The notes under the pieces: model-generated
The model's input: only the letters and a program-made list of their open reading frames with translations
The model's database searches: none
Told to the model about the DNA's origin: nothing
Shown here: one piece after another, positions 41 to 59,167 of the stretch
Position numbering within the stretch: position 1 is the first letter of the stretch
Layout of the letters: each line of letters opens with the position of its first letter
Origin: Candidatus Omnitrophota bacterium
GTDB lineage: Bacteria > Omnitrophota > Gorgyraeia > JAHJTE01
Direction: 5' to 3'
NCBI GenBank assembly: GCA_018830005.1
Contig: JAHJTE010000001.1
Coordinates: 449,332 to 513,331 of the forward strand
DNA length: 64,000 nt
Program-made: the position numbers and the translations under genes

Positions 41-244
41 ATGGAAGATATAGATAAAAGCATAAGGGAAATAGAAGTTGAGGCAAGTTCTCCGCAAGAG
101 GCTATAGAGATAGCCCTTAAGAAATTAGGCGTTAAAAGAAATGAAGTAGAGATAAAGATATTGAATGAGGAAACCAAAGGGCTTTTTGGAATGGAAGGAT
201 CAAAACCAGCAAAAGTTAAAGTGAGAGTAAAGGAAAGAAAGTGA
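41..244 (+). CDS. small KhpB/Jag N-terminal-domain (Jag_N-like) protein
   Basis: 67-aa ORF. The sequence EAIEIALKKLGV...EVEI.IL.E..KGLFG...KPAKVKV matches the Jag_N fold pattern. The stop TGA overlaps the GTG of the next ORF. Confidence 0.5.
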   Translation: MEDIDKSIREIEVEASSPQEAIEIALKKLGVKRNEVEIKILNEETKGLFGMEGSKPAKVKVRVKERK

Positions 245-500
245 CATATAAAATAACTGGAGATTGTCCTGAATGAGGCTATCCAAAGAAGTGAATCTTC
301 GGGATCCCGAAGAAGTTCTTTAGAAGTAACATCATTCGGGACAAACAATGCGGCCTTTGCGTAGAAAAGTGTCCTTTAAAAGTAATAGTAAAGAATGGAG
401 AAAGATACCAGATTACAGACAATTGCGAAGAATGCGGCATAGGTATAGAAAGCTGTCCAATGAGGGCGATTGTTGAAGTAGTAGAAGATTTTAAGAGATA
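241..500 (+). pseudogene. ferredoxin-like (CxxCxxxCP) ORF with two in-frame TGA codons; candidate selenoprotein or disrupted gene
   Basis: The frame runs from GTG 241 (GTGA overlap with the upstream stop) to TAG 500. It encodes VTYKITGDCPE*GYPKK*IFGIPKK...QCGLCVEKCP...DNCEECGIGIESCP. The TGA codons lie at 274-276 and 292-294. A 16-bp perfect palindrome (297-312) follows immediately. Confidence 0.35.
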
Positions 501-518
501 GAAAACGATTGATAGACT

Positions 519-716
519 ATGCCTAGATGTGTGGCTAAAGAAATACAAGCTAAAGAGTTTACTCCCAGAGCAATAGGCAAAATTAGAGAAGGCAATTTCT
601 ATATCCCTGATTGCCCATATTATGAATCGCGAATTAATTTCCCTAAAAAAGTCAAAATAGACGAAATTCTTATTGGTTGGCATTGTTTCAATTGTAATAA
701 TTTTAAAGAAGATTAA
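519..716 (+). CDS. hypothetical small Cys-rich protein
   Basis: 65-aa ORF containing DCPYY...WHCFNCNN. It is tightly packed with the next ORF (stop 716, start 720). Confidence 0.35.
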   Translation: MPRCVAKEIQAKEFTPRAIGKIREGNFYIPDCPYYESRINFPKKVKIDEILIGWHCFNCNNFKED

Positions 717-719
717 AAA

Positions 720-944
720 ATGGAATTTGAAAATCAAGGTATTAAATGTAGCAAATTTTGGGAAACAGAATTGGTCATCAAGAAGACTGAAGCTAAAATA
801 AGTGAGACAAGTAGCATTAAAGAGAGGCGATATTATGCTCAAGACATCTTACTTGAGGCAGAAGGTTTATTATCGTGTTTAAATTATAATTCTGGAAATC
901 CAGATTGCTTGAATTGTCACTCTATCTGCCGCGGCCACATTTAA
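720..944 (+). CDS. hypothetical small Cys-rich protein
   Basis: 74-aa ORF with a C-terminal CLNYNSGNPDCLNCHSICRGH cysteine cluster. Confidence 0.35.
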   Translation: MEFENQGIKCSKFWETELVIKKTEAKISETSSIKERRYYAQDILLEAEGLLSCLNYNSGNPDCLNCHSICRGHI

Positions 945-1006: not shown

Positions 1007-1402
1007 ATGTTTAAGAAAGACCAAAGATTGAAGATGCAAGAGAAAATTATTGATATCGAAGCCGGGATGCAAGGAAATATTAAATTTAGCAGCCCAGTCA
1101 ACTTAAGAATAAGCGGCAAATTTGAAGGAGAATTAGAAACCCAAGGAGTCTTAGCAATAGGAGAAAAGGCGGATGTAAAAGCTAAGAAGATCAAGGGAGA
1201 GTATATAACAATAGCCGGTAATGTAAAAGGTGATATTATAAGTAGTAAACGTCTGGAACTTTCTTCATCTGCAAAGGTGATTGGAAATATTAAGGCCCCA
1301 ATTTTGGTCATTAATGAAGGTGCTATGTTGAAAGGAAACTGTGAGGTCCCTTTCGAAGCTGAAAAAAGCGAGCCTAAAAAACACTCTAAAAAGAAGAAAT
1401 AA
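1007..1402 (+). CDS. bactofilin (CcmA/DUF583 family) cytoskeletal protein
   Basis: The ORF contains repetitive beta-helical motifs (GKFEGELE..GVLAIGEKADVKAKKIKGEYITIAGNVKGDIIS..LELSSSAKVIGNIKAPILVINEGA) and a Lys-rich tail. Confidence 0.8.
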   Translation: MFKKDQRLKMQEKIIDIEAGMQGNIKFSSPVNLRISGKFEGELETQGVLAIGEKADVKAKKIKGEYITIAGNVKGDIISSKRLELSSSAKVIGNIKAPILVINEGAMLKGNCEVPFEAEKSEPKKHSKKKK

Positions 1403-1544
1403 AGTTCCTTTCTATATTTTTTGATTTTATTTCTTTATACACCTTTTCAAAATTTCTCTCTATGCTTATCTTTACAATAAATCTTTGATGTCCACCTTTT
1501 AAAAGAGGACAGACATTAACTCTCTACCTTCCAAATAGTTACGT

Positions 1545-1752
1545 CTTTTTAAGCCCCAAAACATTGGACAAATAGGACTCCTTCGGCGCGCTCACTGCGT
1601 TCGCTTGCTCAGGATTTCGCTAAAGTGCTCAAAATTTAGCGAGGGGATAGCCTCTCTAAGTCCAGAATATTCTTGATATAACAAGGTATTGCGTATATAA
1701 TTACTCTATTAAATTGAGAGAGGTTTCCCCTCATGATGTTTGAGAGGGACCC
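1545..1752 (+). repeat. intergenic repeat-family copy A (promoter plus conserved leader module)
   Basis: It shares about 60 nt with copy B (ggacaaataggactccttcggcg..ctcac..cgttcgcttgctcaggatttcgctaaa). It also carries the GAGG-loop-CCTC hairpin, TTGATA-17-TATAAT, and the leader gagaggtttcccctcatgatgtttgagagggaccc. Confidence 0.7.
1673..1701 (+). promoter_or_regulatory. sigma70-type promoter (TTGATA-17 nt-TATAAT) inside repeat copy A
   Basis: TTGATA at 1673-1678, 17-nt spacer, TATAAT at 1696-1701. The identical architecture recurs in copies B, D and G. Confidence 0.6.
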
Positions 1753-1785
1753 TTGATTTTTCTACAATAACAGAAAAATCAAGGG
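1750..1785 (+). other. strong hairpin (11-bp stem) in the leader of a structured noncoding region
   Basis: cccttgatttttc-tacaataaca-gaaaaatcaaggg forms a perfect inverted repeat. Confidence 0.5.
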
Positions 1786-2177
1786 TGCTCCTAAGCCTAT
1801 CGGGAAAATATTGTAAAGATTTTCCCGATGTTTAGGCAAGGAGCCCCCTCAAAGTGTTTAAGCGAGGGGGCAGAGTATATTCGGAAAATTAATGGTTGTT
1901 CCGATGTTTAGGCAAGGAGCAATTTTCTTACTGTATTGATTAGAATTGAAATATAATAGCCTCAAAAAGGAGGCTGTATGGGCAGGATGAATTTAGAGTA
2001 ATTAGACTAATCTTAGGGCGCTAGTAAATTAGCGCCTTTTCTAATTAGGTACGTGTCCCCGGAATTTGGTGCAGTTTCTACAAAGTTAATATCCGATAAG
2101 AATGAGGAGATTATTGTCCTTAATTCAGAACTAGCCAAGAAGGTAATAAGAAAAATAACCAAAGGAGGCGGATAAAA

Positions 2178-2804: not shown

Positions 2805-2934
2805 ATGTCAGAGAACTTTGAGGTAGGGGAGTCTAAGGAGTCGGTAGGAGTGTACTGTTTGTCACCTTGATGCAATTGTCCGTCTTCTAATAGAGGACAA
2901 ACAGCAATCCTTTACTTCCCAAATAGTTGCAGAC

Positions 2935-3160
2935 TTCTCAGCCTAAAAATACCGGACAAATAGGACTCCTTCGGCGTACTCACTTCGTTCGCTTGCTCAG
3001 GATTTCGCTAAATACTTATATTAAAGTACTCAAAATTTGGTGAGGAAATCGCCTCTCCGAATCCAGAATTTTCTTGATATAGCAAGGTATTGCGTATATA
3101 ATTGCTCTATTAAATTGAGAGAGGTTTCCCCTCATGACATTTGAGAGGGACCCCATTTTT
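2935..3160 (+). repeat. intergenic repeat-family copy B
   Basis: Near-identical to copy A across the upstream 60 nt, the GAGG-hairpin, the promoter (TTGATA 3074-3079, TATAAT 3097-3102) and the leader gagaggtttcccctcatgacatttgagagggacccc. Confidence 0.7.
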
Positions 3161-3189
3161 TTCATCTCTGATGAAAAAAGTATAAGAGT

Positions 3190-4894: not shown

Positions 4895-5050
4895 TTTCCA
4901 GCCCAAAATGACCGGACATTTTGGGCAATTCTAACGAGGAAACAGCCTCTCTAAAGTTGCAGTATTAGGCATATATTAAGGTGATTCCTATATATAAGCG
5001 TTATTTGGAAACAGAGAGGTTTCCCCTCATGGAATACGAGAGCGACCCCA
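4895..5050 (+). repeat. intergenic repeat-family copy C (diverged)
   Basis: It contains ccaaaatgaccggaca, the hairpin GAGGaaacagCCTCtct, and the leader gagaggtttcccctcatggaatacgagagcgacccc. The promoter hexamers are not conserved. Confidence 0.55.
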
Positions 5051-5830: not shown

Positions 5831-6505
5831 ATGAAAAAAAGAAGCGTGATGTTCGTTGTTGTGGGTTGCGTGTCTTTTCTCTTGCTTGTTACCTCAATCG
5901 CGAGAGCAGAGGAAGTAAAACCGTTGCAGCTAGCGCTAATTGATACAATTCAGCTTGTTCCAGCAACTGATTCGATCAAAGGGCTCCGGTTAGAAGTCTA
6001 CGGGGTTAACAATGATGTGACTGGTTTAAGTTTAGGTTTTGTGCATAAAGCTACAGGTAATGTTAAAGGAGTAGAATTAGGTCTAGTGGGAGTTGTCGAA
6101 GGTGATTTTTATGGTTGGCAGAGCTCTTGGATTCTTAGCTCCGTATCGGGAAGGTTTGTAGGCGTGCAAGGAGGAATTGTTTCTCTTGCTAAAGACAAAT
6201 TTACCGGTTGGCAGAGTGGTATTGTAGCTTCGACTGAGGGGATGTTTAAAGGCCTTCAGAGTGGCCTGGTGAATATTGCTAATACTGATGCCAAAGGAGT
6301 CCAGCTCGGTGCTGTTAACTGGACTGAAAATTCCTTTGAGGGAGTTCAGCTGGGCATTGTTAATCATGCCGGCGAAGTGCGCGGATTACAGCTTGGTATT
6401 GTCAATTATACCAAGTCTCTCAACGGCCTCCAGATCGGCCTTGCCAACTACAACGGCAATAAAGACCCTCTGGAATTCATGGTGCTTGTTAACTGGTCGT
6501 TCTAA
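5831..6505 (+). CDS. secreted protein with tandem about 14-15-aa G-x-Q-x-G-x-V-N repeats
   Basis: The start is at ATG 5831 (RBS ggaggtg), followed by signal peptide MKKRSVMFVVVGCVSFLLLVTSIARA. At least six repeats of the form G(L/V)Q(L/S)G(I/L/A)VN are present. Confidence 0.6.
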   Translation: MKKRSVMFVVVGCVSFLLLVTSIARAEEVKPLQLALIDTIQLVPATDSIKGLRLEVYGVNNDVTGLSLGFVHKATGNVKGVELGLVGVVEGDFYGWQSSWILSSVSGRFVGVQGGIVSLAKDKFTGWQSGIVASTEGMFKGLQSGLVNIANTDAKGVQLGAVNWTENSFEGVQLGIVNHAGEVRGLQLGIVNYTKSLNGLQIGLANYNGNKDPLEFMVLVNWSF

Positions 6506-6624
6506 TTAATCTATAAACTATCCTTTAGCTCAAACAGGGATATCTCCTAATATGCGCTCAATTGATATAGGGGGATATCCCTATATTTTAGCCTTATCTT
6601 TCAAATAGTTTAGAAAGTTAGGTC

Positions 6625-6827
6625 AAAAATGACTGGACAAAACGGACATGGCTCGACGCATTCGTTTCGCCCTTCGAAGAAGCTCAGGGTTTGCTTCATT
6701 TGCTCACCATGAGTGAGGAATCACCTCTCTGAAGTCAAAATATTCTTGATATAACAAGGTATTGCGGATATAATTGCCATTGTGAATTAAGAGAGGTTTC
6801 CCCTCGGCTAATATGAGAGCGACCCCA
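6625..6827 (+). repeat. intergenic repeat-family copy D
   Basis: It contains gactggacaaaacggac, ttgctcaccatgagtGAGGaatcaCCTCtct, a promoter (TTGATA 6746-6751, TATAAT 6769-6774) and the leader gagaggtttcccctcggctaatatgagagcgacccc. Confidence 0.7.
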
Positions 6828-6902
6828 ATTCTTGAGAATATGTGATTAAATAGTAGTAATGAGTCAAGGTTGCAATAAGCACAGCACAAAAGGGGTATCA
6901 AC

Positions 6903-7256
6903 ATGAAAAACCTTTTCAGCCAGTTACGTGTAAACAAAAACATCTGTTTCTGTCTTATCCTTTTCTCTGTTGCTGCCGTGGTTTGTGCGCAGACACTCGA
7001 GAGACAGCGTCCCCCTATATCTGCGCAGGAAGCCATCCGCCTGGCCGAACGATACGTGACTAATAACAAGATTGACGTCTCGAAGCATTTCATCAGTTCG
7101 GTGCGCTATATTGTGTCGGGAAGTTGGACAGATAGCTCAATAGGCAAAGGTCCCTATTGGCAAGTAACCTACGAATTGGTTCAATTAGCGGATGGGGGTC
7201 AGCACTTCATATTGATTTATATGGACGGTAAGATCGGCAGAATCGGCGGATTATGA
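6903..7256 (+). CDS. hypothetical secreted protein (possibly PepSY-like)
   Basis: 117-aa ORF with an N-terminal signal peptide (CLILFSVAAVVCAQT). Confidence 0.5.
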   Translation: MKNLFSQLRVNKNICFCLILFSVAAVVCAQTLERQRPPISAQEAIRLAERYVTNNKIDVSKHFISSVRYIVSGSWTDSSIGKGPYWQVTYELVQLADGGQHFILIYMDGKIGRIGGL

Positions 7257-7284
7257 AAACAAGTTCGCCGAAGCATTCATTGGT

Positions 7285-7328
7285 CGTTAAGAGAGGTTTC
7301 CCCTCGGCTAATATGAGAGGGACCCCAG
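7285..7328 (+). repeat. intergenic repeat-family copy E (3' leader module only)
   Basis: The sequence gagaggtttcccctcggctaatatgagagggacccc lacks the upstream promoter part. Confidence 0.55.
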
Positions 7329-7363
7329 TAATATCATTCTCTTCAGCATTCGGGAGAGTTTCA

Positions 7364-7399
7364 AGGCTATTGATTGATACCGGTCAATAGCCTTTTTTA
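7364..7399 (+). terminator. rho-independent terminator
   Basis: aggctattga...tcaatagcct followed by TTTTTT. Confidence 0.7.
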
Positions 7400-7665
7400 T
7401 CTGTTGCTGTTTCAAAGAGTTAGGGCATTATATTTATTGGCACTATATCGAATTTTTCCACACCATAAGCTGTTTATAAAGCCTCTCTGAATATCGCCAC
7501 TTAATCGCCAAAATAGGCCAATTCCTCTCTTAGTTTATGGCAGCTAGTTTATGCTATATTGGTCAAGATATTGGATATAGATCGGGTTGAATATGGGCAT
7601 AAACTAGGAATTGAGAAGGCTCATTATGTGTTGCAAATATATCAAATTGGGATATAATTCCTTAT

Positions 7666-9287: not shown

Positions 9288-10898
9288 TTATAATGATAAA
9301 GCTATAAGTAAGTTTTTCCACATTTCGAGCTGTTTATTCCAATTTAACTCGAAGGCAATGTTGCGTAGCTTGTACTCGGGGATTAAGGAGATATTTTTGT
9401 TTTCTGAGCAGAGGATTTCTTCTTGTATAGTTGGCGCAAGCAGCAAAAGGTTCATCATTTGATTGAGCCGCTGGTGATTCAAGTTAAGCCATTTGGCAAC
9501 TTGCTTTAAGCCTTCAGCTTTTCCTTCAGCAAGGATGCCTTGGACTTGATGTGCCAAGATAAGATTCTGCCTTAATTGTGGCTCGTTCTTGATATTTATT
9601 TGATTAGGAGGGACTGGCAGGTTTTTGAGTTCCTTGAGTCCTACCTTATATTGGCGTCTCCTATTATCTTTTAGCAGAACGATTTCAAGTATCCCTTTAT
9701 TACCATCGAAACTTGCTTCTTTAAGGACTGTTTTAATGATTGCAATCTTTTCTTGAAGGCTAAAGGTATCCCATATTTTTTCGTCGAGTTTGGGTAGAGG
9801 AGTCAAGGTTCTGAGTAATTCGACGATTTTCTGTTCAATCTTCTGCGTGCTCAGTAAGCGGGTAGGACAGGTTTTGTAGCCACGCTTACTGGCGCTCATA
9901 CAAAGGTAGTAGTGATACCTGTATTTATTGGCTTTGATGTTGTAGGAGAAGTACATCGCGCAGTTGCAGGCTTTACAGCGCAGGAGGCCGGTAAGCAGAC
10001 CCACATGTTTAGTCTTCTTGGTCATTTTCCAGTCAGGCTTGTTTTTTGCAAGTATGCTTTGTGCTTTCTGGAAGGTTTTTTCCGAAATAATTGCTTCATG
10101 TTCTCCCGGATATAACTCGGCCTGGTATGAAACCTTGCCGGCGTAAAGCACATTTCTTAAGATTAGCTGAATACCGTTGATTGTAAACTGAATCCCACCG
10201 AATTTTCTGCCTTTTTCAGATGTATGCTGCTTAGTTGTACATCCCAGGTCATTCATAATCATGGTTACGGACAGAAGGGAGCGCTTTTCAATATACGAGG
10301 TGAAGATTTTACGCACGATCTTGGCTTCTTTCTGGTTAACCACGAGCTTATGCTTATCCTTATCGATGTTATAGCCTAAAGATGGCCTTCCTCCGATCCA
10401 TTTGCCTTTTCTCTTAGCAGCGCCCATCTTGTCGCGGGTGCGTTCTGAGATAATCTCGCGCTCAAACTGCGCAAAAGAGAGGAGGATATTAAGCGTAAGC
10501 CTGCCCATCGAGTTTTGCGTATTAAAGTGCTGTGTTACTGATACGAAGGTGGCACCATGTTTTTCAAATACAGACAGGAGCTCTGCAAAATCAAGAAGTG
10601 AGCGCGATAAGCGGTCAACCTTATAGACTACTACGCAATTAATTTTATTGGCTTTGATGTCAGTAAGAAGCCTCTGAAGTGCAGGTCTGTCTGTATTGGC
10701 TCCGGTGAAGCCACCGTCATCGTAGTATTCTGGCGAAGCTACCCAGCCTTCGTTTTTCTGGCTGGTGATGTAGCTTTCGCAGGACTCGCGTTGGGCATCC
10801 AGAGTAGTAAAGTCGCGCTCAAGTCCATCGCTGACCGATTTGCGCGTATAAATGGCGCAATTAATAATCTTTTTTTCTTCGGGTTCTGTAGTTTTCAT
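9288..10898 (-). CDS. large serine recombinase (resolvase/invertase N-domain, recombinase domain and zinc ribbon)
   Basis: The N-terminus has the catalytic Ser region (AIYTRKSVSDGLERDFTTLDAQRE) and VVVYKVDRLSRSL. Further along are YRYHYYLC...CP and a coiled-coil. The start overlaps the stop of the upstream DUF2924 gene (ATGA). Confidence 0.9.
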   Translation of the reverse strand: MKTTEPEEKKIINCAIYTRKSVSDGLERDFTTLDAQRESCESYITSQKNEGWVASPEYYDDGGFTGANTDRPALQRLLTDIKANKINCVVVYKVDRLSRSLLDFAELLSVFEKHGATFVSVTQHFNTQNSMGRLTLNILLSFAQFEREIISERTRDKMGAAKRKGKWIGGRPSLGYNIDKDKHKLVVNQKEAKIVRKIFTSYIEKRSLLSVTMIMNDLGCTTKQHTSEKGRKFGGIQFTINGIQLILRNVLYAGKVSYQAELYPGEHEAIISEKTFQKAQSILAKNKPDWKMTKKTKHVGLLTGLLRCKACNCAMYFSYNIKANKYRYHYYLCMSASKRGYKTCPTRLLSTQKIEQKIVELLRTLTPLPKLDEKIWDTFSLQEKIAIIKTVLKEASFDGNKGILEIVLLKDNRRRQYKVGLKELKNLPVPPNQINIKNEPQLRQNLILAHQVQGILAEGKAEGLKQVAKWLNLNHQRLNQMMNLLLLAPTIQEEILCSENKNISLIPEYKLRNIAFELNWNKQLEMWKNLLIALSL

Positions 10899-29184: not shown

Positions 29185-29437
29185 GAATAGACCGCCACAT
29201 TTAACTTAACCTCTTATTTTACAATAGATTATGTAATTCGCTTTGTAAAATACCTATTCTTGTGTTATACTTATAAGTGGATAAGACTATAAAGTCAGTA
29301 AGACGAGAAAGGCAAACCATTTGAAAGAATGGGGCGGGCCGAGTGCCCGGTCCTAAAAGGACCGCAAAACTTCAAGAGCCTAAATCCTTGAAAGTGAGGA
29401 TATGGTAGTCAGTTGCCGAAACAGAACGAAGAAGTTT

Positions 29438-29471
29438 AAGCCTATTCTTTCAAAAGAATAGGCTTTTTTAT
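29438..29471 (+). terminator. rho-independent terminator (possibly the 3' end of a small RNA)
   Basis: aagcctattctt-tcaaa-agaataggctt followed by TTTTTAT. Confidence 0.65.
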
Positions 29472-29485
29472 TGGGGGTGGCAACA

Positions 29486-29860
29486 ATGAATCACAAGATT
29501 TTAGTAGTAGATGATGAGTCTGATGTACGCGAGGTAATTAGCCAATATTTTGATAGGAGAGGCTATGATGTAGATACTGCAAGCAATGGACAGGAGGCCC
29601 TGTCTAGAATATTGGTTGAGAGACCAGAATTAATATTGTTAGACATTAGGATGCCTGAAATGGATGGGATTGAGTGTCTGCGTAGAATAAAGAAACTTGA
29701 TAAAGAAATGACGGTTATTATGGTTACCTGCGTGGATGAAATAGATACAGCTAAGAAAGCGCTTAGATTAGGTGCTACAGACTACATAACGAAACCCCTT
29801 GGCTTTAGTGCCTTAGAGACAGCTATTTCAACGTACCTTTTCCTTAAGAGCGTTAATTAA
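29486..29860 (+). CDS. single-domain response regulator (CheY-like receiver)
   Basis: ILVVDDESDVREVI...LILLDIRMPEMDGIE...DYITKP. Probable ATG start at 29486 after RBS gggggtgg. Confidence 0.85.
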   Translation: MNHKILVVDDESDVREVISQYFDRRGYDVDTASNGQEALSRILVERPELILLDIRMPEMDGIECLRRIKKLDKEMTVIMVTCVDEIDTAKKALRLGATDYITKPLGFSALETAISTYLFLKSVN

Positions 29861-31024
29861 ATGAATAGGTGGCCCAAAATGGTAAAAGTACTGGTAGTAG
29901 ATGATGAATTGGATTTCTGTAATTCCCTGGAGGAAGTTCTTTCTAGAGAAGGCTATCGGGTAATAATCGCCACTTCAGGAAGAGAGGCCTTAGAAAAGGT
30001 AAAAACAGAAAGGCCGCAACTGATCCTGCTGGACATTAGGATGCCTGAAATGGATGGGATTCAGACTTTAGAGAGGATAAGGCAGATTGATAAACAGGTA
30101 GTTATTACAATGGTCACAATAGTAAAAGATACCAAAGTTGAACAGCGGACTTTAAAGTTAGGAGCAGTTAATTATATTACCAAGCCAATCGATTTAGACT
30201 TACTCAAAAGAAGCATCCATGGGTGGGCAACAAAGGTAGAGGTCCAACAGCTTGAGGAGGTTGATATTATAGCTTTGGATTACGATGAAAAAAAATTTAG
30301 GACAATCTTAGATCAATTTAGGAAAAAGGGCTATAATATAAAGAGTATTGAAAATAAAAGCAGTGAACTTGATTTAGCAGAGGGTCCTTTTGACCTTTTA
30401 ATTCTTAGGGCAGATTTATTAGGCGAGGATACAATACGGGTGCTGGCAAAATATAAACAAGCATATCCGGGACTACCTGTTATGATAGCAGTAGAGCCAG
30501 AATCAGTAAAGGAATTAATAGATAGAATTAAAAGATATGGCTCCTGTAAATATTTACCACCCTCCTTTGATGCAAACGGCCTTATTATGGTAATATATAG
30601 GATGGTATCCAAGGCTAAAGAAAAAAAGGAGATTAGAGAAGAAAAAAAGCCCAGCGATTACATTCTTATAGTGGATGATGAACCTGACGTATGTGAATAT
30701 ACGGGTAAGTTTCTAGCTAACGAAGGATATAAGGTGTCTTCAGTAACTGATTCCAAGGCTGTGTTAGAGCAGGTTGAAGCATTAAAGCCCTTTATCGTAC
30801 TTCTAGATATTGTTATGCCAGATGTAGATGGTCTTGAACTCTTAAAAAAGATAAAGAAAATTAGTCCACAGACTCAGGTTATAATTATAACAGGCCTAAA
30901 AGATGAATCTGTTTGCAGAGAATCTATAGAGTTAGGTGCTTGTGATTATATAGTGAAGCCATTTTCCCTGGATCAACTCAAAGTCACAGTACTAATCAAC
31001 AGCATCAAATCACATCTAAACTAG
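29861..31024 (+). CDS. multi-receiver response regulator (REC - central domain - REC)
   Basis: Two canonical REC domains (VLVVDDELD...LILLDIRMPEMDGIQ and ILIVDDEPD...VLLDIVMPDVDGLE) with no output domain. Confidence 0.8.
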   Translation: MNRWPKMVKVLVVDDELDFCNSLEEVLSREGYRVIIATSGREALEKVKTERPQLILLDIRMPEMDGIQTLERIRQIDKQVVITMVTIVKDTKVEQRTLKLGAVNYITKPIDLDLLKRSIHGWATKVEVQQLEEVDIIALDYDEKKFRTILDQFRKKGYNIKSIENKSSELDLAEGPFDLLILRADLLGEDTIRVLAKYKQAYPGLPVMIAVEPESVKELIDRIKRYGSCKYLPPSFDANGLIMVIYRMVSKAKEKKEIREEKKPSDYILIVDDEPDVCEYTGKFLANEGYKVSSVTDSKAVLEQVEALKPFIVLLDIVMPDVDGLELLKKIKKISPQTQVIIITGLKDESVCRESIELGACDYIVKPFSLDQLKVTVLINSIKSHLN

Positions 31025-49562: not shown

Positions 49563-50743
49563 TGGCGCGAACAATAGTTCCAATAGGACCATATCATCCG
49601 CTTCAAGAAGAGCCGGAATTTTTTACCCTGACAGTTGAAGGTGAAAGGGTAGTGGATGTTGATGTGCAGATAGGCTATAACCATAGGGGAATAGAAAAAC
49701 TCTCTGAGAGCAAGACATTTGACCAATCTACTTTTGTCATAGAGAGAATCTGCGGTATATGTTCTACAAGCCATCCATTTGCTTATACAAGGGCAGTAGA
49801 GGATATCATACCTATGGAGGTACCTCCTAGGGCAAAATATATAAGGACAATAATCGCCGAAGGCGAAAGAATACATTCGCATCTGTTATGGCTTGGGCTT
49901 GCCGGTCATTTCTTAGGATATAATACTGTTTATATGTGGGCCTGGAAGTTACGAGAAGAAATCTTAGATGTGATGGAAATATTATCCGGCAACAGAAATA
50001 ACTATGCTATGTTTAAGCCCGGCGGAGTAAGAAGAGATATAAAGCCTGAAGATATTCCGGGCGTCTTAAGCAAGATAGACTCTATTGTTCCTACTTTAAC
50101 AATGCTCAAGAAAGCTGTTATAGATGATCCTGTTCTTCATGCGCGTACCAAGGGAGTCGGGATTCTTACAAAAGAAGAGTCTATAGACTTTTGTGCGCTT
50201 GGGCCTACTGCGAGGGCATCAGGCGTTGGGCGAGACCTGAGAAAAGATTCTCCTTACGGAGCATATGAAGAAGTAGAATGGGACATGATAGTAACCCAGA
50301 ATGGCGATGTGTTTGATAAGGTAGTTGTCAGGATACTGGAGACATTTGAGTCGATAAAGATAATGAAGCACTGCCTATCAAATTTGCCAAAAGGTGAAAT
50401 AGACGCAAATATAAAGAGTATCCCGTCGGGTGAAGGTATTGGTCATATCGAGGCACCAAGGGGTGAATGTTTCCATTATGTAAGAAGCGATGGAACTAAT
50501 AGGCCAGTCCGACATAAAGTACGCGCACCAACCTTTATGAACCTGCCGACATATAAGGCGACTATTGTGGGTGAGACGATTTCTGATGCAACAATAATTT
50601 TAGCTGCTATAGATCCCTGCTATTGTTGTACGGAAAGGATGGCAGTGCGCAATAAGAAGGGTGAGAAGATGTATAACGGTCAGGATCTAGTTAGATTATC
50701 ACAGGATAAGACTAAACAGATTAGAAAGAAGATGGGTGTGTAG
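49562..50743 (+). CDS. group-4 [NiFe]-hydrogenase large subunit (MbhL/EchE-like)
   Basis: N-terminal RICGICSTSH and C-terminal DPCYCCTER Ni-binding motifs are both intact. A roughly 30-aa C-terminal extension is present for endopeptidase processing. Confidence 0.9.
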   Translation: MARTIVPIGPYHPLQEEPEFFTLTVEGERVVDVDVQIGYNHRGIEKLSESKTFDQSTFVIERICGICSTSHPFAYTRAVEDIIPMEVPPRAKYIRTIIAEGERIHSHLLWLGLAGHFLGYNTVYMWAWKLREEILDVMEILSGNRNNYAMFKPGGVRRDIKPEDIPGVLSKIDSIVPTLTMLKKAVIDDPVLHARTKGVGILTKEESIDFCALGPTARASGVGRDLRKDSPYGAYEEVEWDMIVTQNGDVFDKVVVRILETFESIKIMKHCLSNLPKGEIDANIKSIPSGEGIGHIEAPRGECFHYVRSDGTNRPVRHKVRAPTFMNLPTYKATIVGETISDATIILAAIDPCYCCTERMAVRNKKGEKMYNGQDLVRLSQDKTKQIRKKMGV

Positions 50744-52406
50744 GGATATGAATATGAGCGCTGAACTTTTCAGAATGGACAATCTATCCTTTTTCGTAAG
50801 TTTATTTATAGTTTTCTTCTCTTTGCTTACGATTATTTATTCCTTCGGATTCATGAAGGAGAGAAAAGGAAAGCTTAGCTATTACCTATATATACTACTG
50901 ACACTGATATCTTCCTTAGGTGTTGTTGTTTCGAATAATCTTGCATTGCTTGTTGTATTTTGGGGATTTTCCGGATTTCTTCTTTATCTTTTGATAGGTT
51001 TTGGTCAAACAAAGCGCACACCTTCCACTGCTAAAAAATCATTTATAATAATCGGCGCAACAGATGCATTTATGCTTTTGGGCTTGGCCTTTATCTGGCA
51101 TTTAGCAGGCTCGTTTAATATAGACAAGTTAAGCATTCCTCTAGATAATAGGCTTTCAGTTATTGCCTATCTAAGTCTTGCTGTAGGTGCCTTTGCTAAG
51201 GCAGGGGCTATGCCTTTTCATACATGGGTGCCAGACACTGCCGAAGATGCGCCTACCCCTGTTAGTGCGTTTTTACCTGCATCTTTAGATAAACTTCTTG
51301 GTATATATTTCCTGGCGCGAATCTCGCTGGATATCTTTCAGATGAATGCAGCCATGAATATGTTTTTAATGCTGCTGGGGAGTTTTACTATCGTGGCCGC
51401 GGTTATGATGGCACTTATGCAACATGATTTAAAGAGGCTTTTGGGTTATCATGCTGTAAGCCAGGTCGGATACATGGTTTTAGGTATAGGTACAGGCAGC
51501 CTTATTGGTATTGCAGGCGGCCTGTTTCATATGCTAAATAATGCTATATATAAATCCTGTTTATTTTTCTCTGGAGGTATAGTCGAGAAAAAAACACAGA
51601 CAACAGATTTGGAAAAATTAGGCGGCCTTGCCAAAATTATGCCCACTGCGTTTATTACGTTTTTAATAGCCTCATTCGCAATATCAGGTGTGCCGCCATT
51701 TAATGGCTTTGTTTCAAAATGGATGCTCTATCAAGGTATAATCGAGACTGCCCAAAGAGGTGGTTTTGTCTGGATAATATGCCTTATTGCGGCTATGTTC
51801 GGCAGCGCACTTACCTTAGCAAGCTTTATGAAACTAATACACGCTATATTTTTAGGTCAAGTCTCTAAAGAGCTCTCAATTGCAAGCAACAAGCAAAGGG
51901 ACATTGGTATTACTATGTATATTGCGCCTGTTGTACTTGCGGCCTTATGTGTTATCTTTGGCGTATTTGCATATAAGATACCGCTTAATATGTTTATCTT
52001 TCCTAGTTTAGGCCAAGATGTAGGATTTTCTGGGATATGGAATCCTGGTCTGGCTACTATTTTGATACTTCTAGGCATTCTCTTAGGTGTTCTAATTTAT
52101 TTTCTAGGTACGATAAAGACCGCGAGAGAATCTGAGGCCTTTATAGGAGGGGAGATACTAGAAAAACAGCCGGATATGAGGATTTCAGGAACTGAATTCT
52201 ATAATACGATCAAAAACATAGGTCCATTAAAGGTTATCTATAGATTAGCAGATAATAAGGTGTTTGATATTTATTCTGTTGGTGAAAAGATAACCCTAAC
52301 GTTTAATAAGATATTGCGCTATATTCACAATGGCATTCTTTCTTCCTATTTAGCATGGACCCTTTTAGGGATGATTGTTTTGTTCTACGTTTTATTGTTG
52401 AGGTAG
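50736..52406 (+). CDS. Mrp antiporter subunit D-like / NuoL-M-N family membrane subunit (MbhH-like)
   Basis: 556 aa, about 14 transmembrane helices, with the conserved WVPDA.D.PTPVSA motif. Confidence 0.8.
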   Translation: MCRDMNMSAELFRMDNLSFFVSLFIVFFSLLTIIYSFGFMKERKGKLSYYLYILLTLISSLGVVVSNNLALLVVFWGFSGFLLYLLIGFGQTKRTPSTAKKSFIIIGATDAFMLLGLAFIWHLAGSFNIDKLSIPLDNRLSVIAYLSLAVGAFAKAGAMPFHTWVPDTAEDAPTPVSAFLPASLDKLLGIYFLARISLDIFQMNAAMNMFLMLLGSFTIVAAVMMALMQHDLKRLLGYHAVSQVGYMVLGIGTGSLIGIAGGLFHMLNNAIYKSCLFFSGGIVEKKTQTTDLEKLGGLAKIMPTAFITFLIASFAISGVPPFNGFVSKWMLYQGIIETAQRGGFVWIICLIAAMFGSALTLASFMKLIHAIFLGQVSKELSIASNKQRDIGITMYIAPVVLAALCVIFGVFAYKIPLNMFIFPSLGQDVGFSGIWNPGLATILILLGILLGVLIYFLGTIKTARESEAFIGGEILEKQPDMRISGTEFYNTIKNIGPLKVIYRLADNKVFDIYSVGEKITLTFNKILRYIHNGILSSYLAWTLLGMIVLFYVLLLR

Positions 52407-57865: not shown

Positions 57866-59167
57866 ATGTGTTATGCAATTCCCGGAAAGGTAAAGGAAAT
57901 AGGCGAAAAATCAGTGCTGGTTGACTATTTTGGCGAGACAAGAAAAGCGATTAACGAATTTTACGATGTTCGTATAGGTGACTATGTCTGTGCCCAGGGA
58001 GGTTTTGTAATAAAAAAGGTTTCTCCTTCCGAGGCAGAGAGCACTCTCTCGGCCTGGCAGGAGCTTTTTTTCGAGCTTAAGCAAATAGATTTACGCCTTT
58101 CCAGATTAGATCTTAAAAATAAAGGGATAGATAAGAGACTTTCTTCAATACTGGATAATGCTTTAGAAAACAAAAGCCTGTCTTTAGAGGATTTACTGTA
58201 TCTATTCAATACAGAAAGCCGTTCTGGGATTGAACTGATTTATAAGACCGCTAATTTCCTTCGTCAAAAATACATTAAGAATTCCTGCTGTGTACATGGG
58301 ATAATTGAGATTTCAAATTATTGCACGCAGGGTTGCATGTATTGTGGTATATCGACTCATAACAAGGCTCTTGGCCGGTATAGAATGACTCATAAAGAAA
58401 TAGTTGATTCAGCCCTCCTGGCAATAGAGGAATTTGGATTTAAGGCCATCCTACTACAGAGCGGCGAAGATGCATTCTATACTGCTGATAGGCTTGCTGA
58501 TATAGTTGCGGAAATAAAGGCAAAGGCAGGCGTTCTTATCTGTATAAGTTTTGGCGAGATAGGTATTGATGGATTAGAAAAGCTTTATAAGGCTGGGGCA
58601 AGGGCAATCTTGATGCGTTTTGAGACTTCAAATCCAAAGATCTATGAAAGACTGCATCCTGGCAGGAGCTTGAATACGCGCTTAGACCACATTAAAAAGG
58701 CAGGGCAAATCGGTTATTTGATTATGACCGGTGGACTTATTGGATTGCCGGATCAGACCAGAGAAGATATTATAAACGATATATATCTGGCTAAGGAGTT
58801 ACAAGCTGAGATGTATTCCTTTGGTCCTTTTCTGCCGCATCCAGAGACGCCATTAGCTTCTAACTCTCCTCCTAATGAAGATGATGTATTGAAGGCCCTG
58901 GCATTAACTAGACTTATCGATCCAGAAAAGAGCAAGATCTTAGTAACTACTGCTTTCGAGACACTTTGTCCTGATGCCCGTAGGCATGGGCTTCTTGCAG
59001 GCGCAAATTCAGTAATGCTTAATGTAACCCCTATTAAATATAGAAAACAGTATTCAATTTATCCTAATAGGGCCTACGATAAAGAAGAAATAACGACTCA
59101 GATTAAAGAGACAATAGCACTTCTGCAATCTCTTGGCAGGGCCCCTACGGATTTAGGCGTGAATTAA
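57866..59167 (+). CDS. HypC (N-terminal 75 aa) fused to HydE-type radical SAM maturase
   Basis: MCYAIPGKVKEI...GDYVCAQGGFVI matches HypC, with the essential Cys2. The remainder carries CTQGCMYCG, YRMTHKEIVDSALLAIEEFGFKAILLQSGED, GLPDQTREDI, GPFLPHPETPLAS and GANSVMLNVTP, which match HydE. Confidence 0.85.
   Translation: MCYAIPGKVKEIGEKSVLVDYFGETRKAINEFYDVRIGDYVCAQGGFVIKKVSPSEAESTLSAWQELFFELKQIDLRLSRLDLKNKGIDKRLSSILDNALENKSLSLEDLLYLFNTESRSGIELIYKTANFLRQKYIKNSCCVHGIIEISNYCTQGCMYCGISTHNKALGRYRMTHKEIVDSALLAIEEFGFKAILLQSGEDAFYTADRLADIVAEIKAKAGVLICISFGEIGIDGLEKLYKAGARAILMRFETSNPKIYERLHPGRSLNTRLDHIKKAGQIGYLIMTGGLIGLPDQTREDIINDIYLAKELQAEMYSFGPFLPHPETPLASNSPPNEDDVLKALALTRLIDPEKSKILVTTAFETLCPDARRHGLLAGANSVMLNVTPIKYRKQYSIYPNRAYDKEEITTQIKETIALLQSLGRAPTDLGVN

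What the first reader, a model, noticed from the sequence alone, without database searches (positions are those of the whole stretch)
241..500. Ferredoxin-like ORF with two in-frame UGA codons and an adjacent perfect palindrome: candidate small selenoprotein
The ORF begins at a GTG that overlaps the upstream gene's stop (GTGA coupling). It encodes a Cys-rich ferredoxin-like peptide (GDCPE, QCGLCVEKCP, NCEECGIGIESCP). It contains TGA at codons 12 and 18, directly preceding a 16-bp perfect palindrome (CTTCGGGATCCCGAAG, 297-312) that could form a SECIS-like hairpin about 20 nt downstream of the first UGA. 

Elsewhere in the window TGA is clearly a stop (ATGA overlaps), so global recoding is excluded. 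The options are selenocysteine insertion near a redox-active Cys motif (DCPE-U) or a decayed gene.
Basis: partly seen in the sequence, partly recalled or inferred. Interest (0 to 1): 0.55.

Follow-up and report, generated by a model that had tools for sequence, protein, structure and literature searches.

The report
Broken ferredoxin gene, not a selenoprotein
The two in-frame UGA codons lie inside a 75-base palindromic insert that splits the iron-sulfur motif of a small ferredoxin gene; related bacteria keep only relics of this gene or lack it, so it is most likely an ordinary decaying gene and not a selenoprotein.

Summary
ORF 241-501 has TGA at 274-276 and 292-294, a perfect palindrome at 297-312 and a GTGA overlap with the upstream Jag_N gene. 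TGA is a normal stop elsewhere in the window.

The palindrome is only the tip of a 79-nt hairpin (265-343). It is a DNA quasi-palindrome that folds equally well on both strands.

Removing 75 nt (any placement from 267-341 to 276-350) joins GDCPE or GDCKQ to CGLCVEKCP. This restores a canonical CxxCxxCxxxCP motif. The resulting 61-aa protein aligns end to end with 54-77-aa clostridial-type ferredoxins. Both UGAs therefore sit in a 25-codon segment that no homologue has.

The organism is a Candidatus Omnitrophota bacterium. In relatives, the ferredoxin at this position is a 25-codon relic (L007, L024), an 11-codon relic (L015-L019) or absent (five loci). The window copy has also lost a nearly invariant Cys ligand (Gly, 442-444).

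The hairpin geometry fits a bacterial SECIS for UGA1 only. A survey of 176 complete Omnitrophota genomes found selA and selD in 1 each.

Verdict: a ferredoxin pseudogene interrupted by a small palindromic insertion. Selenocysteine is not supported, and programmed bypass or excision is unlikely but not excluded. Interest is low.

The parts
41..244 (+). Jag_N-domain gene (67 aa). Its TGA stop overlaps the GTG of the ferredoxin ORF.
   Evidence: Pfam Jag_N, E = 1.2e-18. An identical protein is named 'Jag N-terminal domain-containing protein [Candidatus Omnitrophota bacterium]', MBU2540733.1.
241..273 (+). Ferredoxin 5' segment, codons 1-11 (V/M-TYKITGDCPE). It matches the family N-terminus MxYKITxDCxx.
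265..343 (.). 79-bp quasi-palindrome (long hairpin) with 32 pairs, of which 2 are G-U. It folds equally well on either strand.
   Evidence: -33.7 kcal/mol, z = -6.7.: -34.8 on the + strand and -36.4 on the - strand; second most stable 80-nt fold in the window.
274..348 (+). 75-nt (25-codon) intervening segment that interrupts the first CxxCxxCxxxCP motif. Equivalent placements run from 267-341 to 276-350. It contains both in-frame TGA codons (274-276 and 292-294).
   Evidence: Removal gives GDCPECGLCVEKCP (or GDCKQCGLCVEKCP) and a 61-aa protein that aligns end to end with small ferredoxins.
297..312 (.). Perfect 16-bp palindrome CTTCGGGATCCCGAAG, the apex of the hairpin (loop GAUC at 303-306).
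   Evidence: A weak terminator-like match at 296-313.
272..279 (+). Left copy (AATGAGGC) of an imperfect 8-nt direct repeat that flanks the insert. The right copy, AATGCGGC, is at 347-354. The first TGA differs from the TGC of the right copy by one base.
   Evidence: Read directly from the sequence.
349..501 (+). Ferredoxin 3' segment: CGLCVEKCP, a linker, the second motif CEECGIGIESCP, a tail and the TAG stop (499-501). It has no in-frame start codon of its own until 460.
442..444 (+). GGT (Gly) at the position of the nearly invariant third Cys of the second cluster motif. This is a second lesion.
   Evidence: Alignment A1. The L024 relic keeps TGC at this position (CDECGTCIEKCP).
519..944 (+). 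Two small Cys-rich ORFs, C1 (519-716) and C2 (720-944), conserved in Omnitrophota. They were used as anchors to find relatives. The last 11 ferredoxin codons and the gap before C1 travel with them.
1007..1402 (+). Bactofilin gene, the downstream anchor of the locus.
   Evidence: Pfam Bactofilin, E = 7.6e-23. 215 relatives found.

Best explanation
ORF 241-501 is the remains of a small clostridial-type 2x[4Fe-4S] ferredoxin gene in a Candidatus Omnitrophota genome. A 75-bp stretch of a 79-bp DNA quasi-palindrome sits inside the first cluster-binding motif, between the first and second Cys codons. This stretch brings two in-frame TGA stops.

Translation from the GTG ends after 11 codons, and there is no usable restart. 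No ferredoxin is made, so the gene is a pseudogene.

Shown: the insert, its hairpin, the restored motif after removal, and the loss of the gene in relatives.

Inferred: (1) the palindrome arrived as a small mobile or repair-generated insertion; (2) the conserved last ~36 nt persist because they carry expression signals for the downstream C1-C2 genes.
For: 1. Removing 75 nt restores CxxCxxCxxxCP. Generic ferredoxins carry exactly C-x-E-CGLCVEKCP.

2. The spliced 61-aa protein gives 368 phmmer hits. Many are 54-77-aa ferredoxins aligned over residues 1-58 in one stretch at 45-54% identity. The consensus is MxYKITxDCxxCGxCxxxCP...CxxCGxCxExCPxxAIVE.

3. The unspliced protein, with C placed at the UGAs, stays below every Pfam cut-off and matches only residues 36-77. 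The spliced protein passes Fer4 and Fer4_16 and matches Fer4_9 over 1-52 of 52 positions.

4. The hairpin is equally stable on both strands, so it is a DNA palindrome and not a strand-specific RNA signal.

5. The ferredoxin at this position is intact in no relative. L007 keeps 25 codons without a start. L024 keeps about 25 codons without a start. L015-L019 keep 11 codons in a different genomic context. The gene is absent in L022, L023, L028, L029 and L030.

6. The window copy also has Gly in place of a nearly invariant Cys ligand.

7. An intact 58-aa ferredoxin elsewhere in the L024 locus has an uninterrupted CIGCELCAKQCP motif.

8. Gene callers never call this ORF. The NCBI accessions for Jag_N and C1 are consecutive.
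Against: Apart from the insert and one Cys-to-Gly change, the reading frame is clean: no frameshift and no other stop. The inactivation is therefore recent, or the gene is still read in some way.

The insert length is a multiple of three, which has a 1 in 3 chance.

No second copy of the palindrome was found in 69 kb of this genome, so mobility is unproven.

L024 has a related GGGATCCC-centred palindrome at the equivalent place. This hints that the hairpin may be older, or more specific to this locus, than a random insertion would be.
Confidence: 0.8

Rival explanations
1. Selenoprotein. Both UGAs would be read as selenocysteine with the hairpin acting as a bacterial SECIS, giving an 86-aa ferredoxin-like protein with a CxxU motif.
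For: UGA1 is 26 nt from a 4-nt apical loop (GAUC, G first) on a 7-bp upper stem. This fits the bacterial SECIS model (model in PMC13188914). UGA1-GGC lines up with the Cys-Gly of CxxCG. One Sec-containing ferredoxin family, HgcB, is listed in PMC13188914.
Against: UGA2 is 8 nt from that loop, outside the 16-37 nt range. The alternative hairpin 305-338 has no G in its first two loop positions, and its z-score is only -1.25.

Both UGAs lie in a 25-codon segment absent from all homologues, and that segment splits the Fe-S motif. The apparent match of UGA1 to Cys is explained by the AATG[A/C]GGC direct repeat.

There is no Rfam hit and no tRNA-Sec, selA or selD in the window. selA and selD each occur in 1 of 176 complete Omnitrophota genomes (bioRxiv 10.64898/2026.06.07.730766).

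No relative conserves the ORF, and the hairpin folds equally well on the antisense strand.
Confidence: 0.02
2. Programmed coding gap. Ribosomes would hop over the hairpin as in T4 gene 60 or mitochondrial byps, or the hairpin would be cut out of the mRNA. Either way an intact 61-aa ferredoxin would still be made.
For: A stop codon follows directly after the last ferredoxin codon (GAA-UGA). A very stable hairpin begins at the take-off region and ends 5 nt before the resume codon, bringing the two borders together. The rest of the ORF is free of lesions that would stop translation. A related palindrome is present at the same locus in L024.
Against: No matched take-off and landing codons give the canonical motif. 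GAA to CAA is non-cognate. GAU to GAC and UGU to UGC both lose a Cys ligand (read).

The hairpin is a two-strand DNA palindrome. No relative has the gapped gene, and relatives show plain decay. A Cys ligand is already lost. No bacterial chromosomal precedent is known to me.
Confidence: 0.04
3. Reversible knock-out. The palindrome flanked by short direct repeats (AATG...AATG) would be lost at low frequency by replication slippage, restoring the gene in part of the population as a crude on/off switch.
For: The architecture, a long palindrome between direct repeats (272-279 and 347-354), is the one known to favour precise excision. The length is in frame and the remaining ORF is clean.
Against: Two independent assemblies both carry the insert. 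The Cys-to-Gly change would remain after excision. Relatives have lost the gene outright. No read-level data were available.
Confidence: 0.08
4. Assembly or sequencing artefact, such as a chimeric hairpin.
For: Palindromes can arise from library artefacts.
Against: The sequence is identical in a 552-kb ENA contig, an 848-kb NCBI MAG contig (same Jag_N and bactofilin proteins) and an independent Logan assembly from another run.
Confidence: 0.01

Closest known systems
Clostridial-type 2x[4Fe-4S] ferredoxins (Pfam Fer4, Fer4_9, Fer4_16; about 55-75 aa)
   Same: After removal of 75 nt, the following all match: the length (61 aa), the N-terminus xYKITxDC, the first CxxCxxCxxxCP motif, the linker, the second motif and the AIVE tail. 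Identity to many small ferredoxins is 45-54%.
   Different: As encoded, the first motif is split by 25 codons with two stops. The third Cys of the second motif is Gly. The Pfam scores of the spliced protein are only just above the cut-offs (22.9-33.3 bits, against 53.6 bits for the intact L024 ferredoxin).
Bacterial selenoprotein genes with an in-ORF SECIS (E. coli fdhF type; bSECIS model of Zhang and Gladyshev as summarised in PMC13188914)
   Same: There is an in-frame UGA followed by a stem-loop. For UGA1, the spacing (26 nt), the loop size and the G in the loop all fit.
   Different: UGA2 does not fit the model. The UGAs are not at positions where homologues have Cys in a contiguous alignment. 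The stem-loop is a DNA palindrome. The phylum generally lacks selA and selD. There is no conservation.
Programmed translational bypassing (phage T4 gene 60; 'byps' of Magnusiomyces capitatus mitochondria). Recalled from my own knowledge, not tested against papers here.
   Same: There is a non-coding gap inside an ORF, a stop codon right after the last sense codon, and a hairpin at the take-off site.
   Different: There is no matching take-off and landing codon pair that yields a functional motif. The gap is 75 nt and forms one long hairpin. There is no evidence of conservation or expression.
Small palindromic mobile repeats of bacteria (REP/REPIN, Rickettsia palindromic elements, Correia elements and other MITEs). 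Recalled from my own knowledge.
   Same: The element is 75-79 bp, nearly all hairpin, with terminal inverted repeats (TGTCCTGAATGA / TCATTCGGGACA). It can land inside genes, and a possible short target duplication is present.
   Different: Only one copy was seen in 69 kb. There is no similarity to any plasmid or phage record. Unlike Rickettsia palindromic elements, it is not translatable in frame.

Membership tests
Bacterial selenoprotein gene | The in-frame UGA aligns with Cys (or Sec) in homologues. | tested here: not met
   Both UGAs lie in a 25-codon segment that 13 aligned ferredoxins and 368 phmmer hits lack. UGA1 mimics Cys12-Gly13 only through the border repeat AATG[A/C]GGC.
Bacterial selenoprotein gene | A bSECIS hairpin lies 16-37 nt after each UGA, with a 3-9 nt loop with G in its first two positions, a 4-16 bp upper stem and an energy of -7.5 kcal/mol or lower (PMC13188914). 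| tested here: inconclusive
   UGA1 meets the model: 26 nt spacing, loop GAUC, 7-bp stem. UGA2 does not: it is 8 nt from that loop. The alternative hairpin has loop UAG or UUUAG and z = -1.25. There is no Rfam match.
Bacterial selenoprotein gene | selA, selB, selD and tRNA-Sec are present in the genome. | not testable with these tools
   Only 69 kb of the genome could be read. There is no tRNA in the window and no SelA or SelD among 30 ORFs of at least 117 aa scanned, the largest ones included. In the literature, selA and selD each occur in 1 of 176 complete Omnitrophota genomes (bioRxiv 10.64898/2026.06.07.730766).
Bacterial selenoprotein gene | The UGA-containing ORF is conserved in relatives. 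| tested here: not met
   Relatives have relics or nothing at this position.
2x[4Fe-4S] ferredoxin (functional gene) | An uninterrupted ORF with two CxxCxxCxxxCP motifs. | tested here: not met
   The first motif is split by 75 nt with two stops. The second motif is CxxCxxGxxxCP.
2x[4Fe-4S] ferredoxin (ancestry) | Full-length similarity to the family and a Pfam score above the gathering cut-off once the insert is removed. | tested here: met
   Fer4 scores 22.9-26.4 bits against a cut-off of 21.1. Fer4_16 scores 31.4-33.3 against 30. Fer4_9 matches profile positions 1-52 of 52. End-to-end phmmer alignments.
Gene-60-type translational bypass | Matching take-off and landing codons flank the gap. 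| tested here: not met
   GAA/CAA is a mismatch. The cognate pairs GAU/GAC and UGU/UGC each give a product that lacks a Cys ligand (sequence).
Gene-60-type translational bypass | A stop codon directly after the take-off codon and a hairpin at the take-off site. | tested here: met
   GAA-UGA at 271-276 lies in the 5' arm of the 265-343 hairpin.
Mobile palindromic repeat (MITE/REP-like) | Several related copies are present in the same genome. | tested here: inconclusive
   There is no second copy in the window plus 5 kb upstream. The rest of the genome could not be reached. A possibly related palindrome sits at the same locus in L024.
Mobile palindromic repeat (MITE/REP-like) | Terminal inverted repeats and a target-site duplication. 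| tested here: inconclusive
   The inverted termini match at 11 of 12 positions. The candidate duplication AATGAGGC/AATGCGGC (7 of 8) does not sit outside the inverted repeats, so the two readings of the borders conflict.

The most novel reading that the evidence does not exclude
The 75-nt hairpin is a programmed coding gap in a bacterial chromosomal gene. Ribosomes that stall at GAA-UGA at the foot of the hairpin would resume at UGC-349, or the hairpin would be excised from the mRNA or DNA. Ferredoxin synthesis would then be conditional. The GGGATCCC-centred palindrome at the same locus in a distant relative (L024) would be a trace of the same device.
Probability: 0.04. Interest if true: 0.85.

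Novelty: already known. Interest (0 to 1): 0.12.

Why it matters
As read here, it matters mainly as a caution. An in-frame UGA next to a Cys motif, with a good hairpin at SECIS distance, can be produced by a palindromic insertion. A border repeat of the insert can even make the UGA appear to align with Cys.

It also documents a very plastic locus in Omnitrophota (PilZ, ACP, Jag_N, ..., C1, C2, bactofilin), in which a small ferredoxin gene is being lost in several lineages.

Only if the gap were bypassed or excised would it be important. That would be the first chromosomal bacterial case of gene-60-like hopping.

Tried and rejected
- Global UGA recoding: rejected. Long genes have no internal TGA, and TGA ends several genes.
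- Word-indexed protein search with the spliced ferredoxin: no hit.
- Genome and metagenome scans with the spliced ferredoxin: these returned only generic ferredoxins plus one true relative, L007.
- Other copies of the hairpin in the window and in all fetched loci: none, only 9-12-nt chance matches.
- Similarity of the insert to plasmid or phage records: none.
- Exact 18-mer of the apex in IMG/VR: two hits inside GC-rich coding sequence with no flanking similarity, about the number expected by chance.
- Rfam at permissive threshold on 200-420: only noise, and no SECIS family.
- A transposase near the other strong hairpins at 6500-7400: no Pfam hit.
- Vestigial ferredoxin sequence upstream of the L015 relic: not significant, score 18 against a shuffle mean of 19.5.
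- Double frameshift through the open +1 frame of the insert: considered and rejected as needing two compensating shifts.
- The antisense ORF 279-842 (187 aa): low-complexity mirror of the + strand genes, not pursued.
- P0004 (NCBI C1 variant): could not be looked up.

Full report
**Observation.** The stretch 241-501 on the + strand reads VTYKITGDCPE*GYPKK*IFGIPKKFFRSNIIRDKQCGLCVEKCPLKVIVKNGERYQITDNCEECGIGIESCPMRAIVEVVEDFKR*. The GTG at 241 overlaps the TGA stop of a 67-aa Jag_N gene at 41-244. The two in-frame TGA codons are at 274-276 and 292-294. The perfect palindrome CTTCGGGATCCCGAAG is at 297-312 and is unique in the window. The window uses the standard code: genes of up to 765 codons have no internal TGA, and several genes end in TGA. 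An independent assembly from another sequencing run (L020) is identical over 1,363 nt, so it is not an assembly artefact.

The 16-bp palindrome is the tip of a 79-nt hairpin spanning 265-343, with 32 pairs.
- Its energy is -33.7 kcal/mol, z = -6.7 against dinucleotide shuffles.
- It is the second most stable 80-nt fold among 15,980 windows on both strands of the 64 kb.
- It folds as well on the antisense strand (-36.4 kcal/mol) as on the sense strand (-34.8 kcal/mol), with only two G-U pairs.

It is therefore a DNA quasi-palindrome and not a strand-specific RNA signal.

**The hairpin interrupts a ferredoxin motif.** The protein before the hairpin ends ...KITGDCPE, and the protein after it starts CGLCVEKCP.
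- Deleting 75 nt gives GDCPECGLCVEKCP or GDCKQCGLCVEKCP, a perfect CxxCxxCxxxCP motif. Any placement from 267-341 to 276-350 gives the same kind of product.
- Unrelated ferredoxins found in genome and metagenome scans carry literally C-x-E-CGLCVEKCP.
- A full HMMER search of 1.84 billion representatives with the spliced 61-aa sequence gave 368 hits. Many are 54-77-aa ferredoxins aligned from residue 1 to about 58 in a single stretch at 45-54% identity.
- The alignment consensus is MxYKITxDCxxCGxCxxxCPxxAIVxxGxxYxITxxCxxCGxCxExCPxxAIVE.
- With Cys placed at the two UGAs, the unspliced protein stays below every Pfam cut-off and matches only residues 36-77. The spliced protein passes the Fer4 and Fer4_16 cut-offs and covers Fer4_9 from position 1 to 52 of 52.

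Both UGAs therefore lie in a 25-codon segment that no homologue possesses.

**Why UGA1 appears to align with Cys.** UGA1-GGC seems to line up with the Cys-Gly of CxxCG. This is because the left border of the insert (AATGAGGC, 272-279) repeats the right border (AATGCGGC, 347-354). One C-to-A difference turns TGC into TGA.

**Borders of the insert.** The exact borders cannot be fixed. There are two readings:
- The palindrome itself is the insert (267-341, with inverted termini TCCTGAATGA and TCATTCGGGA). This needs no coincidence.
- A 67-nt insert carries an 8-bp duplication. This would require the 3' end of the insert to be complementary to the target flank.

**Relatives.** Names attached to identical proteins place the organism in Candidatus Omnitrophota. 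I used the conserved neighbours (C1 at 519-716, C2 at 720-944, bactofilin at 1007-1402) as anchors. The locus is very plastic, and the ferredoxin at this position is intact nowhere.

| Locus | State of the ferredoxin downstream of Jag_N |
|---|---|
| L007 | Last 25 codons only, directly after the ACP stop, no start codon; Jag_N also missing |
| L015-L019 | Last 11 codons only, upstream of C1-C2, in a different neighbourhood (GH130 upstream; patatin and CD-NTase downstream) |
| L024 | About 25-codon relic (CDECGTCIEKCPAKAIVEVKE*) without a start, between Jag_N and C1 |
| L022, L023, L028, L029, L030/L031 | No ferredoxin sequence |

L024 also has an intact 58-aa ferredoxin on the other side of Jag_N. 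It is 39% identical to the spliced window protein and has an uninterrupted CIGCELCAKQCP motif.

The window copy has a second lesion. GGT (Gly, 442-444) replaces the nearly invariant third Cys of the second motif, which the L024 relic still has. L007 has scrambled the same motif in a different way.

Gene callers never call this ORF. The NCBI accessions for Jag_N and C1 are consecutive.

The last ~36 nt of the ferredoxin are kept wherever C1-C2 occur. I infer, but did not show, that they carry expression signals for C1.

**Selenocysteine.**
- The bacterial SECIS model asks for a 3-9-nt apical loop with G in its first two positions, a 4-16-bp upper stem and 16-37 nt between the UGA and the loop (PMC13188914).
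- UGA1 fits: 26 nt spacing, loop GAUC, 7-bp stem.
- UGA2 does not fit: it is 8 nt from that loop.
- The alternative hairpin that can form after the 5' arm is unwound has loop UAG or UUUAG and is not more stable than shuffles.
- Rfam has no match even at permissive thresholds.
- The window has no tRNA and no SelA or SelD among the 30 ORFs of at least 117 aa scanned, which include the largest.
- A survey of 176 complete Omnitrophota genomes found selA and selD in one genome each (bioRxiv 10.64898/2026.06.07.730766).

Together with the homologue evidence, this puts the selenoprotein reading at about 2%.

**Programmed bypass or excision.** A stop codon right after the last ferredoxin codon, at the foot of a strong hairpin whose other foot lies 5 nt before the resume codon, resembles the take-off site of T4 gene 60 (from my own knowledge). 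No cognate take-off and landing pair yields the canonical motif:
- GAA to CAA is a mismatch.
- GAU to GAC and UGU to UGC each drop a Cys ligand.

The hairpin is a two-strand palindrome, and nothing is conserved in relatives. I put this at about 4%. A passive variant is rare precise excision between the AATG repeats, which would restore the frame in part of the population. That is mechanistically plausible but untested, and I put it at about 8%.

**Unexplained point.** L024 carries TTCGGGATCC-CTCGAA-GGATCCCGAG about 45 nt upstream of its ferredoxin relic, also between Jag_N and the second motif. GGGATCCC occurs nowhere else in the 64-kb window or in about 130 kb of other loci. The local match beats all but 8 of 1,000 shuffles. 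However, AT-rich chance matches of similar score exist elsewhere. It could be the same element family hitting one locus twice, an old shared insertion, or chance. I could not resolve this with the searches left.

**Verdict.** This is a ferredoxin pseudogene interrupted by a small palindromic insertion, in a locus where relatives have lost the gene. The kind of feature is already known, and interest is low.

Noticed in passing
window 1489-1762, 2877-3163, 5001-5050, 6694-6835, 7278-7327: A dispersed repeat family on the + strand. It has a 50-nt core, GAGAGAGGTTTCCCCTC..GAGAG[GC]GACCCC, in five copies. Each copy lies in a non-coding gap upstream of a + strand gene. Two or three copies extend to 140-280 nt and include a near-consensus promoter, TTGATA-17-TATAAT at 1673-1701. 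There is no Rfam match. It looks like a repeated promoter plus structured leader of unknown function.
   Followed up: partly
window 1700-1870: Nested hairpins in the 780-nt gap after the bactofilin gene fold to -72 to -74 kcal/mol on either strand. A 31-nt direct repeat...CCGATGTTTAGGCAAGGAGC, occurs at 1814 and 1890.
   Followed up: no
window 519-944; L015-L018 1-2300: C1 (65 aa) and C2 (74-92 aa) are small Cys-rich ORFs conserved in Omnitrophota with no Pfam family. They usually sit before the bactofilin gene. In one lineage they sit, with the last 11 ferredoxin codons, next to patatin and CD-NTase genes (CBASS-like), as if the module had moved.
   Followed up: partly
L024 2024-2050: The palindrome TTCGGGATCC-CTCGAA-GGATCCCGAG lies at the position equivalent to the window hairpin, upstream of a ferredoxin relic. 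A 136-148-aa ORF (2066/2102-2512) starts inside the relic in another frame.
   Followed up: partly
window 18141-22949: A DEAD-box helicase ORF (18141-20198) ends in TGA. It is in the same frame as the following Helicase_C + MrfA Zn-binding (MZB) ORF (20214-22949). This may be one split helicase or two genes. The pair lies in an island with a serine recombinase (9288-10898), DUF2924, Vsr, two C5 DNA methylases and an HNH protein.
   Followed up: no
window 29301-29420: A c-di-GMP-I riboswitch (53 bits, E = 1.4e-7) lies upstream of two response-regulator genes (29471-29860 and 29861-31024). The two genes abut in the same frame.
   Followed up: no
window 57866-59167: One 433-aa ORF combines an N-terminal HupF/HypC domain with a radical SAM domain. 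It follows a cluster that includes an Mrp antiporter / complex-I-like membrane subunit gene (50736-52406).
   Followed up: no
L001 1-4732 (upstream of the window): Gas-vesicle genes (GvpA-like, GvpL/F, GvpK) and a PilZ-domain gene lie just upstream of the ACP, Jag_N and ferredoxin locus in this Omnitrophota contig.
   Followed up: no
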